Shown here piece after piece: positions 5,875 to 33,314 of a DNA stretch of 64,000 nt. Position 1 is the first letter of the stretch. Each line of letters opens with the position of its first letter. The position numbers and the translations under genes were made by a program. The stretch lies in NCBI RefSeq assembly GCF_009914755.1, contig NC_060925.1; one strand, given 5' to 3'. Under the pieces are notes generated by a model. It was not told the DNA's origin, searched no databases, and saw nothing but the letters and a program-made list of their open reading frames with translations. The stretch is from the human T2T-CHM13v2.0 reference genome, Homo sapiens.

Positions 5875-6042
5875 CTGATTGTTTTCAGGGCTAAGACGAC
5901 CTCCTGCCCCAGGAGTGCCTGGTATCTTTACCACTGCAGTACTATTGGCCATGGAGCCTTGTGGAGGGGTGCTGGCTGGTTCCGGTTTTATGGATGAGAA
6001 ATTGGAGAGGTTGATTAGGGCTGAGGGGCCAAACTGGTTCAT
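5875..6042 (-). CDS. TAF12: TAF12 exon 2, canonical coding part (MNQFGPSALINLSNFSSIKPEPASTPPQGSMANSTAVVKIPGTPGAGGRLSPENNQ). Second in-frame Met at 5952 is the start of the short TAFII15 form
   Basis: 56 codons matching the TAF12/TAFII20 N-terminus; ATG at 6042; donor CAG|gtatca at 5874. Confidence 0.97.
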
Positions 6043-6126
6043 AATCTGCCGAGCTTTGGACTTCAGCTCATAGAGCTTATCGAGATCCTGTTTCTTTTTG
6101 GAGCTGTGAGGACCAAGGCCAATTAA
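6043..6126 (-). other. TAF12: 5' part of TAF12 exon 2: 84 nt, 28 stop-free codons in frame with the canonical ATG (LIGLGPHSSKKKQDLDKLYELKSKARQI). UTR in the canonical mRNA, coding in N-extended isoforms
   Basis: Acceptor cttttcttctccag|TTAATT (AG at 6128-6127); 84 nt is exactly 28 codons to ATG 6042. Confidence 0.9.
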
Positions 6127-6647
6127 CTGGAGAAGAAAAGCACAAGAATTAGCTCTAGAAGAACCTGTAATAAAGGATGAATCTTGAGAGTAAAAAGAGG
6201 CCTGGTGCAATGGCTCACAACTGTAATCCCAGCACTTTGGGAGGCCCAGGTGGTAGCATCACTTGAGCCCAGTAGTTCAAGACCAGCTTGGGCAACATAG
6301 CGAGACCTAGTCTCTACCAAGAAAAAAAAAAAAAAAAAAAAGTAAGTAAAATGAGGTCTGTTAGACTTTGAGGGTTCTTCAGTATATATGGAATGGTGAC
6401 CATTTAATATCCACAGGTTAAAAATTGAGGGAATGAAGAATGTTTATTACTCTCAGCTGATATTTAGAAACCATCTCATTTCCAAATATTAAGTGAAATA
6501 GTCCACAAAATTTAAACAAGGAAGCAAGTAAATGAAATGAAGAATCTTATGTACAAAAATAAACTAGGGCCGCGTGCAGTAGCTCATGTCTGTAATCCCA
6601 GCATGTTGGGTGCCTGAAGTGGAAGGACCACTTGAGACAGGAGTTCA

Positions 6648-7906: not shown

Positions 7907-7978
7907 AGCTATCTGAGTGTCTAGATCTTTAATTACATCAGCAACAGCTGTGAGCCCGGTGAAATGAGAGGCAGCCAT
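7907..7978 (-). CDS. TAF12: Alternative TAF12 coding exon (exon 7907-7991) encoding MAASHFTGLTAVADVIKDLDTQIA
   Basis: catttacag|gtagcttttgaaaATGG (A at -3, G at +4), 24 sense codons, then GCT|gtaagt consensus donor at 7906. Phase 0, so in frame with exon 2; lies in unique, non-repeat sequence. Confidence 0.75.
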
Positions 7979-8412
7979 TTTCAAAAGCTACCTGTAAATG
8001 AACAACTGGCATCAAGCACCATCCTTGCCATGGAACCATTTTAGTTGAATGGCCTGGTACATCTTCACCAACCAGGATCCAAGCAAACTGGATGTGGAGA
8101 AATATATCTCCTTTTCCTTAGTGGGAGCCAAGACAAACATCTCCATCTCTTTCATAAGCAACTTTGAAAATTAATTAATGATGATTATGGCACATATAGA
8201 CCACCTTCTTATAAAATGAATGTCTGCTGTTAGGGATAAACTAACAGCATATGGAATATTTTATTGGGCAAAATTGTGGGATATGAGCCTGCAGGAATTA
8301 TATCAATGGCCTTCAGAACTTGGTAAAAGTTGGCAATATAAATGTCTACTGTATCTATCCTACTCTTGTCCCTAGTCCTGAGTTCCTCCTCACCACACTG
8401 TCTGACTTTCTA

Positions 8413-26365: not shown

Positions 26366-26960
26366 AGGAGCTTGGGTACTCACAGCCCTGTTCCGAGACT
26401 CAGGAACTCGGAGTCTCAAAGCCCGGATCCCGTCCCCAAAGAAGCCCCAGTCTTCACTGCCCGCTTCTGTTCCCTTCCAAACTCAAGTTTTCTCTGTCTG
26501 CTTCTGCCCCTCAGGAACCTAAGTCTTCGCTGCCCCGTTTCTGAATCCTTAGGAGCCCGGGTCTTCACTGTCCCGCTTCTGCCTCTTAGGAGCCCAAGTC
26601 CTCACCGCTCCACTTTTACCTCTCCGGAGCCTGTGTCTTCACGCCCCGTTCCTTTCTGACCCTTTCCTCGTAGGAGTGCGGGTCCTCATAATCCTGCTCC
26701 TCTCAGACCACTTTCCCTCAGATGCCGGAGAACTCGCATCCGTCCCCGTTCCCTAAGTCCCGTCTTGGAGCCCGGGTCCCCACAGCCGCGTCTTCTCCGA
26801 GCCTGATCCTCTCAGTCAGTCCCTTCCCAAGAGCCTGAATCCTCACAGCCCCGTCTCGTCCACAACCTGGTCCTTCGAACACTGACCCACTGTAGGTCTG
26901 GGTCCTGACTCCCTCCTCCCGCTCTTGTTCCTCAACTGCCAGGGCCCAAGACTCACAGGC
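26366..26960. repeat. Degenerate ~37-bp tandem repeat (about 14 units, consensus ~AGGAGCCCRRGTCYTCACNGCCCCGYTTCTG) at the start of TAF12 intron 1
   Basis: Unit starts at ~26366, 26402, 26440, 26477, 26513, 26551, 26588, 26625, 26672, 26766, 26797, 26829, 26894 and 26941; spacing 36-38 bp in the core. Confidence 0.8.
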
Positions 26961-27060
26961 AGCAGCGTCTATCTCCCCATGATATGCAGAGACTGCCCCA
27001 GTGAAGCGTTCGTCTCAGCAGCCGGTCCGACTGCGCGGCCCTCCCCGACTACTTCCGGCA
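26957..27060 (-). other. TAF12: TAF12 non-coding first exon (TSS end approximate)
   Basis: CpG-rich; ends CTGCCT|gtgagt (donor 26956-26951); directly downstream (minus strand) of the ETS/NRF1 promoter motifs. Confidence 0.85.
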
Positions 27061-27360
27061 CCGCTCCCCGCCTCCAACCCGGAAACGCGCGGCTCTTCCG
27101 GCCGGCGGGCGCGCGCCTCGCTTGCGCAGGCGCAGACTGCCCTCCGACACGTGGTGGCGATATTGAGCTGTGTGTAGGTACACCCTGCAGCTTGCGCTTT
27201 TAACTGCTTGTGGTTGAGTGGCAGCATGAGCGAGCTCTGCGTATTCCAACCCGGCGTTAAGAATCCTTCACTAGCTTTTCTTCCCGACGCTGCTTATTTA
27301 TCTATCGGTAGCATGACGGGTAATTGACGCCCTCGGATGGCTTTGAGGTCGCCATTTTTG
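26990..27360. promoter_or_regulatory. TAF12 bidirectional CpG-island promoter
   Basis: ETS motif ACTTCCGG 27051-27058, NRF1 TGCGCAGGCGCA 27123-27134, E-box CACGTG 27148-27153, YY1 CGCCATTTT 27350-27358; high CpG density. Confidence 0.85.
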
Positions 27361-31159: not shown

Positions 31160-31627
31160 TAAACACTAAACTGTTCACAGTTTGGAGGAAGCATTTTCAC
31201 ATTTTATAACATCTCTGTGCTGTTTCAATTTCTTTACAATTGTCACATATTGTTTTTTTTTTATTTTCTTGAGACAAGATCTTCATCTGTCACCTAGGCT
31301 GGAGTGCAGTGGCATGATTATGGCTCACTGTAGCCTTGACTTCCCTGGCTCAAGCAATCCTTCTGCCTCAGCCTTTGGGGTAGCTGGGACCACAGGCCCA
31401 TGCCACGATGCCCAGTTAATATTTTATTTTGGGGTAGGGACGAGGTCTCTATATGTTGCCCATTGTGGTCTCAAACTCCTGGGCTCTCAAAGTGTTGGGA
31501 TTACAGGCATGACCCACAGCACCCGTCCATCATTATCCATAAAAAAAATGGGAACAGGCCGGGCACGGTGGCTCACGCCTATAATCCCAGCACTCTGGGA
31601 GGCTGAGGCGGGCGGATCACAAAGTCA

Positions 31628-31894
<267 letters not shown>

Positions 31895-32168
31895 TCATTT
31901 TTCACATTAATGCTATGCTGTACCTTATTCTACAACTCTTTTCACTCGATTTAAAAAAAAAAAATTCTAATACTCCTTCGAAGTGCAGCATATAGCATGC
32001 CACAATATGAACACACCATGACAATCAGCTTATGCGTGACCTTGTGACCTTGTGCTTCCACTGCACGCCTGCCTGGGCTGCTCCAAGGTGGTGGCTAGGG
32101 GTGGCACAAGTTACACATTTTCAATTTGGATAGGTTGTGATTCTTGTCTTCCCCAGTCAGATACCTAC

Positions 32169-32198
32169 AGCCGCTGAGAGCCGGTATTCCAACGCCAT
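32169..32198 (-). CDS. TAF12: Alternative upstream TAF12 first exon inside the RNU11 promoter region, encoding MALEYRLSAA
   Basis: Minus strand ctcATGGCGTTGGAATACCGGCTCTCAGCGGCT|gtaggt: 10 codons, phase-0 donor at 32168-32163, in frame with exon 2; CpG-rich context with ETS-like ACCGGAAG at 32251-32258. Confidence 0.6.
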
Positions 32199-32323
32199 GA
32201 GACGCCTTCTGTCGTGAGCAGTTGACAAGAAAGACCCAGCACTTACTGCAACCGGAAGGAGCGGTTCCTCCCTCGCTCGCGCAGCCGCTCTTCCCCGCCA
32301 CTCCCTCGGTGCCCGCCAGCACA

Positions 32324-32352
32324 TTCCCAGCAAGCCCTGAGTATATTTGCAT
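32324..32352 (+). promoter_or_regulatory. U11 distal sequence element: SPH/ZNF143 site plus octamer
   Basis: TTCCCAGCAAGCCCTGA 32324-32340 and ATTTGCAT 32345-32352, about 215-240 nt upstream of the U11 start, the typical DSE position. Confidence 0.85.
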
Positions 32353-32502
32353 ATCAACTCACTACATTTTTTTCTTCTAACTAAAAAATCGAAAGGACAA
32401 ATTCCAGATTCTCCTTGTGAAGTCTTCCTTTCAGTTCAGAAGAAATGGAATTCGCTCTTCAACTTCAGGAAGTTGAAATAAAGAGTTGCTTGGATTTTGT
32501 GT

Positions 32503-32521
32503 TCACCTTTACCAAAAAATG
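32503..32521 (+). promoter_or_regulatory. U11 proximal sequence element (SNAPc site)
   Basis: TCACCTTTACCAAAAAATG starting at -61 relative to U11 +1; fits the TCACCNTNA...AAA PSE pattern. No TATA box, consistent with a Pol II snRNA gene. Confidence 0.85.
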
Positions 32522-32563
32522 GATTTGGTAACACTGCCACCCTGCTTTGGTGACAGAGAAAGC

Positions 32564-32697
32564 AAAAAGGGCTTCTGTCGTGAGTGGCACACGTAGGGCA
32601 ACTCGATTGCTCTGCGTGCGGAATCGACATCAAGAGATTTCGGAAGCATAATTTTTTGGTATTTGGGCAGCTGGTGATCGTTGGTCCCGGCGCCCTT
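32564..32697 (+). ncRNA. RNU11: U11 small nuclear RNA (minor spliceosome)
   Basis: AAAAAGGGCTTCTGTCGTGAGTGGCACACG...AATTTTTTGG (Sm site ~32650-32659)...GGTCCCGGCGCCCTT matches human U11; an intact PSE and DSE indicate the functional gene. Confidence 0.97.
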
Positions 32698-32712
32698 TCT
32701 TTACTGTTATAT

Positions 32713-32728
32713 GTTAGGCGAAATATTA
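32713..32728 (+). terminator. Putative snRNA 3' box
   Basis: GTTAGGCGAAATATTA about 15 nt after the U11 3' end; loose match to GTTTN(1-4)AANARNAGA. Confidence 0.4.
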
Positions 32729-33314
32729 CGCGTTTGGAGTAAGTGGTGCTTTTTGTAACTGAAAAGAGATTCTGTGTGTGTTTTTTTTTTTTTTTAGAGG
32801 CTGCATAGTTATTTGTATGAACCGCAGGTGACCTAATTAGCAAGGTAATTCAGACCTGTATCCTAGCACTTAAGAAGTGGAAGTGGGATAACCCTGCGTG
32901 TTCTCGTGTGGGAGGCTAGCTTAAGCAACAAAGCAGGAAGGCCCCACCAACAAAAGAATTTAAAAATTATACGTGCGTGGTGGCGCGCGTATGAGGAAAT
33001 TATTTGGCAACTGTGTTACAGTATAGCAGCAAATGGAATAGACCTAGTCCCTGACTTTAGGAGACCTGCCTCAGCCCCCCGAATGGCTGGGACTACAGGC
33101 GTGCGCCTCCGCGCCCAGCTAATTTTTGCATTTTTGGTAGAGACGGGTTCACCATGTTGGCCAGGATGGTCTCCATCTCTTCATCTGGTGATCCGCCCAC
33201 CTCGGCCTCTAGGAGTGCTAGGATTACAGGCGTGGCCATCGCGCCCGGCCTGCAATGTTATTTTATGAAGCAGAGGAAATTGAAATTACCTTCACCAGGC
33301 CTTAGCAAACTTTT

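What the first reader, a model, noticed from the sequence alone, without database searches (positions are those of the whole stretch)
32163..32360. The U11 snRNA promoter region appears to drive a divergent, protein-coding TAF12 first exon (MALEYRLSAA-TAF12, 199 aa)
Seen: on the strand opposite U11, ~150 nt beyond the SPH/octamer DSE, is ATG GCG TTG GAA TAC CGG CTC TCA GCG GCT followed by a GTAGGT donor (32168). Splicing to the exon-2 acceptor (6126) keeps frame through 28 open codons into the canonical ATG, giving 10+28+161 = 199 aa. Known: snRNA genes use SNAPc/Oct-1/ZNF143 and a non-standard TBP/TAF complement, and TAF12 is a TFIID/SAGA subunit. Inference: one enhancer could co-regulate the minor-spliceosome RNA and an extended TAF12 proteoform, so that antisense transcription from an snRNA promoter is captured as an mRNA. 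A transcript like this may already be catalogued; its function and its link to U11 regulation are the open questions.
Basis: partly seen in the sequence, partly recalled or inferred. Interest (0 to 1): 0.85.

Follow-up and report, generated by a model that had tools for sequence, protein, structure and literature searches.

The report
Annotated upstream TAF12 exon beside U11
The start codon and splice site are really there, but they belong to an already annotated, probably minor upstream first exon of TAF12, and its in-frame reading into TAF12 is no more than chance would give, because the supposedly untranslated stretch it reads through is coding sequence of an old, conserved longer TAF12 form.

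Summary
Sequence facts confirmed. On the minus strand, ATG 32198 opens 10 codons (MALEYRLSAA), followed by a GTAGGT donor at 32168. Joined to the exon-2 acceptor at 6126, the frame stays open for 28 codons into the TAF12 start at 6042.

The exon is single-copy and RefSeq already lists it as TAF12 exon 32169-32693 (hub table).

- From the annotated 5' end, five ATGs come before 32198. One of them, 32324, is also in frame and open.
- An in-frame open ATG turns up in 12.5-27.6% of shuffled exons and at 10 of 38 mock donors.
- The 28 open codons have a specific cause. They are coding in a 212-213 aa TAF12 isoform that starts in exon 7907-7991 and is conserved without gaps from sharks to mammals.

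If that 85-nt exon is included, MALEYRLSAA becomes a 27-codon overlapping uORF. None of 109 stored database proteins carries the predicted junction, and no other species' alternative N-terminus maps to the U11-side exon.

A divergent promoter sharing the U11 enhancer is plausible from motifs and is a known kind (Anno 2011). It is untested here because I had no expression data.

Verdict: ordinary alternative first exon, low interest. The conserved long isoform is the more notable by-product.

The parts
32169..32198 (-). ATG plus 9 codons (MALEYRLSAA), ending in phase 0 at the exon end
   Evidence: The context is CGTCTC ATG G: no purine at -3, G at +4 (Kozak rule recalled).
32163..32168 (-). 5' splice site GCT|GTAGGT of the alternative first exon
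   Evidence: The exon end at 32169 is annotated in RefSeq (hub table).
32169..32693 (-). RefSeq-annotated alternative first exon of TAF12. Its 5' end lies inside the U11 gene on the opposite strand.
   Evidence: Hub table. The segment 32100-32360 is single-copy in the genome.
32322..32324 (-). Upstream ATG, in frame and open to the donor. It adds 42 codons and lies inside the SPH element.
32436..32438 (-). First in-frame stop upstream, 117 open codons before the canonical ATG in the spliced form
32241..32246 (-). Unannotated consensus donor GCA|GTAAGT upstream of the ATG. If used, the first exon would carry no start codon.
32252..32258 (+). ETS-type CCGGAAG within a CpG-rich patch (32100-32399, CpG o/e 0.81-0.94)
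   Evidence: motif recalled
32324..32352 (+). U11 distal element: SPH/ZNF143-like TTCCCAGCAAGC... (-240) and octamer ATTTGCAT (-219)
   Evidence: consensus forms recalled
32503..32511 (+). U11 proximal element core TCACCTTTA (-61)
   Evidence: consensus recalled
32564..32697 (+). U11 snRNA gene
   Evidence: RF00548, 137.2 bits, full length
6043..6126 (-). Exon-2 'leader': 28 open codons (LIGLGPHSSKKKQDLDKLYELKSKARQI), coding in the conserved long isoform
7907..7991 (-). 85-nt cassette exon with ATG 7978 (GAAAATGG) that encodes MAASHFTGLTAVADVIKDLDTQIA. Acceptor tttacag|GTA, donor GCT|GTAAGT.
   Evidence: Listed among the exons of other TAF12 transcripts in the hub table.
26957..27032 (-). Main TAF12 first exon. 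It reads ..HIMGR*TLLP in the exon-2 frame, so a stop blocks extension from the main promoter in human.

Best explanation
The segment is the 3' end of a single-copy, already annotated alternative first exon of TAF12. It sits 5.1 kb upstream of the main TAF12 promoter, back to back with the U11 snRNA enhancer.

Most likely mechanism (inferred). The factors bound at the U11 distal element (ZNF143/Staf, Oct-1), together with the adjoining CpG-rich, ETS-containing patch, support weak Pol II initiation in the antisense direction at about 32230-32320. The nascent RNA meets U1-type donors at 32246 and 32168 long before any poly(A) hexamer. It therefore escapes early termination and is spliced to the next TAF12 acceptors, exon 7991 or exon 6126, skipping the main first exon, which has no acceptor.

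The continuity of frame is a by-product (shown). The 28 codons ahead of the canonical ATG are open because they are coding sequence of a 212-213 aa TAF12 isoform conserved across jawed vertebrates, which starts in exon 7907-7991. Any upstream exon that ends in phase 0 after an ATG therefore yields an 'extended TAF12'. Gene models of other mammals show several such unrelated heads.

A 199-aa MALEYRLSAA-TAF12 could be made only from transcripts that start between 32199 and 32323 and skip the 85-nt exon. It would keep only the second of two predicted helices of the conserved extension. I expect it to be a minor, lineage-restricted by-product. The exon serves mainly as an alternative 5' leader.
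For: - The exon is in RefSeq (hub table) and the segment is single-copy.
- The U11 gene and its PSE, octamer and SPH sit at canonical distances.
- There is a CpG-rich patch and an ETS motif next to the SPH element.
- Donors lie at 32246 and 32168, and the first AATAAA is at 31428.
- ZNF143-dependent bidirectional promoters that pair U6.2, U6.9, RPPH1 and, by position, U12 snRNA with protein genes are described in PMC3082894 (passages).
- The leader is conserved as protein. 103 proteins match exon 2 at E<=0.001. 65 stored proteins carry the leader motif, and 31 of the 62 that have at least 6 residues before it begin with the exon-7907-7991 peptide. Human versus shark identity is 16/24 and 19/28 with no gaps in the leader, against 43/56 in the canonical N-terminus. 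The extension is found in mammals, a marsupial, birds, turtles, a snake, sharks, a ray and a sturgeon.
- Chance gives an in-frame open ATG in 12.5-27.6% of shuffles and at 10 of 38 mock donors.
- The other species' heads map to exon 7907-7991, to the main exon 1 and its extension, to a small exon at 6457-6486, or to intron read-through. The only hit in the U11-side region was a spurious plus-strand one for P0058 (32267-32344, E 0.07); none maps to the minus-strand exon 32169-32324.
- AlphaFold2 on 14 long isoforms gives two helices (8-26, 33-55) at pLDDT 71-81. The 199-aa form would lack the first.
Against: - I had no expression, CAGE, junction or Ribo-seq data, so the start site, the abundance and the acceptor used are all inferred.
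- The annotated 5' end (32693) does not fit a start next to the enhancer. I can only suggest that it comes from unstranded U11 reads or rare antisense read-through.
- The protein database is clustered at 90% identity. A human or primate 199-aa model could be hidden inside a cluster whose representative begins differently.
- The ATG has G at +4 and would be the first AUG of a proximal-start transcript, so some translation is likely if such transcripts exist.
- No primate genomes were available to test conservation of the ATG, donor and frame.
Confidence: 0.55

Rival explanations
1. The U11 enhancer drives a divergent mRNA whose first AUG is 32198, producing a functional 199-aa TAF12 proteoform that is co-regulated with U11 snRNA.
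For: - ATG, donor, phase and open leader are all present, and the exon is annotated (hub table).
- The motif layout is compatible with a divergent start.
- The known class of ZNF143 bidirectional promoters covers this layout.
- The retained 28 residues are a conserved, confidently helical segment.
Against: - The frame match is within chance.
- 0 of 109 stored proteins hold the junction. The only database protein with the 10-mer is an unspliced read-through of genomic DNA.
- No other species' model uses this exon.
- The annotated 5' end gives five earlier ATGs.
- Including the 85-nt exon destroys the frame.
- The head is unrelated to the conserved first helix.
- No paper links TAF12 and RNU11 beyond 3 papers that look like gene-list papers from their titles and abstracts.
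Confidence: 0.1
2. The annotated extent is right. Minus-strand transcripts start at or beyond 32693 and run antisense through the U11 gene and promoter. The long, uORF-laden first exon makes them poorly translated or purely regulatory or noise, and the U11 enhancer is not their promoter.
For: - The RefSeq exon is 32169-32693 (hub table).
- ATGs at 32649, 32630, 32367 and 32352 open 46-, 64-, 1- and 77-codon uORFs, and ATG 32324, in frame and open into TAF12, also comes before 32198.
- The plus-strand lncRNA TAF12-DT also covers the whole U11 unit (hub table), so this stretch is transcribed beyond the snRNA itself.
Against: - The 5' end falls 5 nt inside the U11 3' end. That looks like a boundary borrowed from U11 read coverage (inference).
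- GC content at 32600-32799 is only 0.41, which is not promoter-like.
Confidence: 0.2
3. The upstream exon mainly joins the 85-nt exon 7907-7991, so the U11-side promoter feeds the conserved 213-aa isoform. The 32198 ATG then acts as an overlapping 27-codon uORF that damps it.
For: - With exon 7907-7991 included, ATG 32198 opens a 27-codon ORF. It ends after ATG 7978, which has a strong context.
- Exon 7907-7991 has a good acceptor and a consensus donor and is the first acceptor met downstream among the annotated exons.
Against: The hub table does not say which exons are combined, and I have no junction data. If the main promoter also uses this exon, no special link to U11 is needed.
Confidence: 0.15

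Closest known systems
ZNF143/Staf-dependent bidirectional promoters pairing an snRNA-type gene with a protein gene: PARP2-RPPH1, MED16-U6.9, C19orf6-U6.2, and by position a U12 snRNA pair (Anno et al. 2011, PMC3082894, passages read)
   Same: An snRNA-type gene with an SPH/Staf site and octamer, and a protein-coding exon on the opposite strand within a few hundred bases of that site.
   Different: - U11/TAF12 is not named in that paper (0 occurrences).
- This is an alternative upstream exon, not the gene's main promoter.
- The annotated 5' end overlaps the snRNA gene instead of diverging from it.
- Occupancy and mutational dependence are untested.
Upstream-antisense transcripts made productive by a 5' splice site ahead of poly(A) signals (U1-PAS logic, recalled; related: PMC11230626, listing and abstract start only)
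   Same: Donors at 32246 and 32168 come before the first AATAAA at 31428 on the minus strand.
   Different: The sense partner is an snRNA gene, whose own transcripts end through Integrator and the 3' box. Nothing was measured here.
N-terminal isoforms created by alternative first exons or alternative starts, including the TAFII20/TAFII15 pair of TAF12 (recalled, not checked here)
   Same: The same body of the protein with a different N-terminus depending on the start used.
   Different: The known human pair differs by a shorter form. This would be a longer form with a 10-residue unique head and half of a conserved extension.
Conserved long TAF12 isoform (212-213 aa; 'isoform X1/X2' gene models such as P0025, P0033, P0050, P0069)
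   Same: It shares the 28-residue leader and everything downstream.
   Different: The conserved form starts at ATG 7978 in exon 7907-7991 and has a first helix.

Membership tests
Pol II snRNA gene with PSE and DSE (U11) | The RNA matches the U11 family over its full length | tested here: met
   RF00548, 137.2 bits against a gathering score of 39, model positions 1-134
Pol II snRNA gene with PSE and DSE (U11) | PSE near -55 and an octamer plus SPH element near -220 | tested here: met
   TCACCTTTA at -61, ATTTGCAT at -219, TTCCCAGCAAGC at -240 (consensus forms recalled)
Bidirectional promoter shared by an snRNA-type gene and a protein gene (Anno 2011 class) | Two start sites on opposite strands, diverging, less than 1 kb apart | tested here: inconclusive
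   The annotated exon start at 32693 overlaps U11 rather than diverging from it (hub table). A start at 32200-32320 would meet the criterion, but no 5'-end data were available.
Bidirectional promoter shared by an snRNA-type gene and a protein gene (Anno 2011 class) | A Staf/ZNF143 binding site between the two units | tested here: met
   SPH-like element at 32324-32341 (motif match only)
Bidirectional promoter shared by an snRNA-type gene and a protein gene (Anno 2011 class) | ZNF143 occupancy, and loss of both transcripts when the site is mutated | not testable with these tools
   Needs ChIP and reporter or genome-editing data
N-terminally extended proteoform from an alternative first exon | An in-frame ATG with no stop through the junction into the main ORF | tested here: met
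   However, this is expected by chance in 12.5-27.6% of shuffles.
N-terminally extended proteoform from an alternative first exon | The ATG is the first AUG of the transcript | tested here: not met
   With the annotated 5' end, five ATGs come first. It would be met only for an unverified start between 32199 and 32323.
N-terminally extended proteoform from an alternative first exon | Conservation of the ATG, phase and donor in related species | tested here: inconclusive
   0 of 109 stored proteins carry the junction, and none of 62 alternative heads maps to the exon. Only cluster representatives and gene models were seen, not genomes.
N-terminally extended proteoform from an alternative first exon | Evidence of translation (Ribo-seq, peptides) | not testable with these tools
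   No such data here. The peptide words are in no searchable paper text.
Conserved long TAF12 isoform | Starts in the exon homologous to 7907-7991 and reads through the exon-2 leader | tested here: not met
When the exon is included, the 32198 frame stops after 27 codons.

The most novel reading that the evidence does not exclude
The U11 enhancer doubles as the promoter of TAF12 mRNAs that encode N-terminally extended TAF12: 199 aa when the 85-nt exon is skipped, or the conserved 213-aa form, damped by the 32198 uORF, when it is included. Output of the minor-spliceosome snRNA would then be coupled to a distinct TFIID/SAGA subunit proteoform carrying a conserved helical module that has not been studied.
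Probability: 0.1. Interest if true: 0.6.

Novelty: new member of a known kind. Interest (0 to 1): 0.3.

Why it matters
If the U11 enhancer really fires in both directions, U11/TAF12 would join the short list of Pol II snRNA genes that share control elements with a protein gene. It would also be a handy natural case for studying how antisense transcription from an snRNA promoter escapes Integrator and early termination.

The 199-aa product itself is unlikely to matter. The more useful result is that the TAF12 '5' UTR' in exon 2 is conserved coding sequence of a long isoform that starts in exon 7907-7991. That isoform has a two-helix N-terminal module conserved across jawed vertebrates. I found no paper on it in four searches (and for the U11 link). 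All 34 PDB entries with TAF12 hold the 161-residue chain, which starts at the canonical MNQF.

Tried and rejected
- The search of earlier findings was not open.
Lists of SNAPc- or ZNF143-bound loci that might name RNU11 or TAF12 therefore went unseen.
- Retrocopies of TAF12 mRNA, which might preserve a 5' exon: exon 2 has only its own match in the genome.
- Repeat origin of the exon: rejected, since 32100-32360 has one match, itself.
- Catalogued spliced protein: a search with the 52-residue translation of 32169-32324 returned one hit, P0105. This is a 238-aa read-through of unspliced DNA from an unnamed contig, with TGA read as W, and is not a TAF12 model.
- Peptide words in print: 0 papers.
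- Literature on vertebrate TAF12 isoforms: the hits concern only fungi and plants, judged from titles and abstracts. 'N-terminal extension' plus TAF12 gave 6 papers on yeast, SAGA and other topics, none on this, judged from titles and abstracts.
- TAF12-DT: 2 papers that look like gene-list papers (listing only).
- Pfam: no family in residues 1-110 of the long isoform.
- The structure model is poor overall (mean pLDDT 49.8, pTM 0.30). Only the extension (pLDDT 71-81) is usable, so I did not run a fold search on it.
- No other eukaryote genome is held, so conservation in primates could not be tested.

Full report
**What is in the sequence**

On the minus strand the window reads tc ATG GCG TTG GAA TAC CGG CTC TCA GCG GCT | GTAGGT. 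The ATG is at 32198-32196 and the GT at 32168-32167. The ten codons give MALEYRLSAA. The TAF12 exon-2 acceptor is ttctccag|TTA at 6126. From there 28 codons (LIGLGPHSSKKKQDLDKLYELKSKARQI) run without a stop into ATG 6042. Exon 2 from that ATG is identical to residues 1-56 of the 161-residue TAF12 chains in 34 PDB entries. The arithmetic 10+28+161 = 199 is therefore right.

On the plus strand U11 is a full-length Rfam match at 32564-32697 (137 bits). Its PSE-like core is at -61, the octamer ATTTGCAT at -219 and an SPH-like element at -240 (consensus forms recalled).

The hub table lists 32169-32693 as an exon of other TAF12 transcripts, so the donor is already catalogued. With that 5' end, five ATGs precede 32198:
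- 32649 opens a 46-codon ORF.
- 32630 opens a 64-codon ORF.
- 32367 opens a 1-codon ORF.
- 32352 opens a 77-codon ORF.
- 32324 is itself in frame and open to the donor. It adds 42 codons and lies inside the SPH element.

The in-frame stop is only at 32438. A consensus donor GCA|GTAAGT at 32246 lies upstream of the 32198 ATG and is not annotated.

The hub table also lists an 85-nt exon at 7907-7991. It has a good acceptor, a GTAAGT donor and an ATG at 7978 in a strong context. Joined to exon 2 it gives a 24+28+161 = 213 aa protein. Placed after the U11-side exon, it shifts the 32198 frame into a 27-codon ORF that overlaps ATG 7978.

**Why the 28 codons are open**

A search with the exon-2 translation returned 103 proteins at E<=0.001 among 202 candidates. 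Many cover the leader fully, at 74-99% identity, from mammals to sharks; the sturgeon model does so at 55%.
- 65 stored database proteins carry the leader motif.
- Of the 62 with at least six residues before it, 31 begin with the peptide of exon 7907-7991. One of these is a cluster of 243 members (P0025, 213 aa), another a bird cluster of 89 (P0050, 212 aa).
- Human versus shark identity is 16/24 in that exon and 19/28 in the leader, with no gaps in the leader, against 43/56 in the canonical N-terminal part.
- A search restricted to the 52-residue extension found it in mammals, a marsupial, birds, turtles, a snake, sharks and a ray. A sturgeon model also has it.
- Pfam has nothing in residues 1-110.
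- AlphaFold2 on 14 such isoforms gives two helices (8-26 and 33-55) at pLDDT 71-81. The rest of the model is poor (mean pLDDT 49.8).

So the 'leader' is coding sequence of an old long isoform, which is why it carries no stop.

**Is the frame match more than chance?**

No. Dinucleotide-preserving shuffles of the first exon have at least one in-frame open ATG in 374 of 3000 trials (92-nt exon), 385 of 3000 (132 nt), 457 of 3000 (155 nt) and 828 of 3000 (525 nt). So do 10 of 38 mock GTRRGT donors on the window's minus strand.

Gene models of other species show the same effect. Unrelated heads are joined to the leader, and they map in human to four places:
- exon 7907-7991;
- the main first exon, 26957-27061, where human has a stop (..HIMGR*TLLP) at the position where tamarin and rabbit models read Q;
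- its extension, 26888-26956;
- a small exon at 6457-6486 (MVSKYQ, identical in human), or intron read-through just upstream of exon 2.

None of the 62 heads maps to the minus-strand exon 32169-32324. The only hit there is a spurious plus-strand one (P0058, E 0.07). The 10-mer occurs in one stored protein, P0105, which is an unspliced read-through of genomic DNA from an unnamed contig. The junction word occurs in 0 of 109 stored proteins. One caveat applies: the database shows cluster representatives at 90% identity, so a human model could be hidden.

**Is it a divergent promoter of the U11 enhancer?**

It is plausible but not shown.

For it:
- The segment 32100-32360 is single-copy.
- 32100-32399 is CpG-rich (o/e 0.81-0.94, GC 0.53-0.55) and holds CCGGAAG at 32252.
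- On the minus strand two donors lie roughly 50-130 nt below an assumed start at 32300, and the first poly(A) hexamer lies 872 nt below it.
- Staf/ZNF143 sites drive both directions at PARP2-RPPH1, MED16-U6.9 and C19orf6-U6.2. A U12 snRNA pair is listed by position (PMC3082894, passages). That paper does not mention U11 or TAF12.

Against it:
- The annotated 5' end at 32693 lies 5 nt inside the U11 3' end on the other strand. That is not a divergent layout. I suspect a boundary taken from U11 read coverage, but this is inference.

The snRNA TAF complex on U2 is TAF5, 6, 8, 9, 11 and 13, with TAF7 also found on U1, U4, U5 and U11; TAF12 is not named (PMC5493778, passage).

**Literature**

- TAF12 with RNU11: 3 papers, which look like gene-list papers from their titles and abstracts.
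- The three peptide words: 0 papers.
- TAF12 isoform phrases: 9 papers held, 8 listed, all on fungi or plants by title and abstract.
- TAF12 with 'N-terminal extension': 6 papers, none on a vertebrate long form by title and abstract.

**Verdict**

This is an ordinary, already annotated alternative first exon. A divergent origin at the U11 enhancer is likely but untested. The 199-aa reading is possible only for proximal-start, exon-skipping transcripts, and it has no support beyond a frame match that chance and the conserved long isoform explain. The long isoform, which starts in exon 7907-7991, is the more interesting by-product.

Noticed in passing
window 7907-7991 and 6043-6126, minus strand: A 52-residue N-terminal extension of TAF12 (213-aa isoform, start at ATG 7978) is conserved without gaps in the leader from sharks and sturgeon to human. 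It is predicted as two helices at pLDDT 71-81 and has no Pfam family. I found no paper on it. All 34 PDB entries with TAF12 hold the 161-residue chain starting at the canonical MNQF.
   Followed up: partly
window 26957-26982, minus strand: The main TAF12 first exon reads ..HIMGR*TLLP in the exon-2 frame. Tamarin and rabbit gene models read MGRQTLLP into the leader, so in human a stop sits where those models have Q.
   Followed up: partly
window 6457-6486, minus strand: A peptide FGNEMVSKYQ, identical or nearly so to heads of marmot, elephant seal, narwhal and bat TAF12 models (MVSKYQ joined to the leader), lies in the intron just upstream of exon 2. It is not in the hub's exon list for human.
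   Followed up: no
window 32157-32170, both strands: The plus-strand acceptors of the last exon of TAF12-DT (ccccag|T at 32157, tcag|A at 32161) and the minus-strand donor of the TAF12 exon (32168) lie within 12 nt of each other. The last exon of the lncRNA (32157-32765) covers the whole U11 promoter and gene.
   Followed up: no
window 32241-32249, minus strand: A consensus 5' splice site GCA|GTAAGT lies between the SPH element and ATG 32198. It is not annotated. Its use would give a first exon without any start codon.
   Followed up: no
window 6063-6071, minus strand: A minimal out-of-frame uORF (ATG AGC TGA) sits 29 nt before the canonical TAF12 ATG, inside the conserved leader.
   Followed up: no
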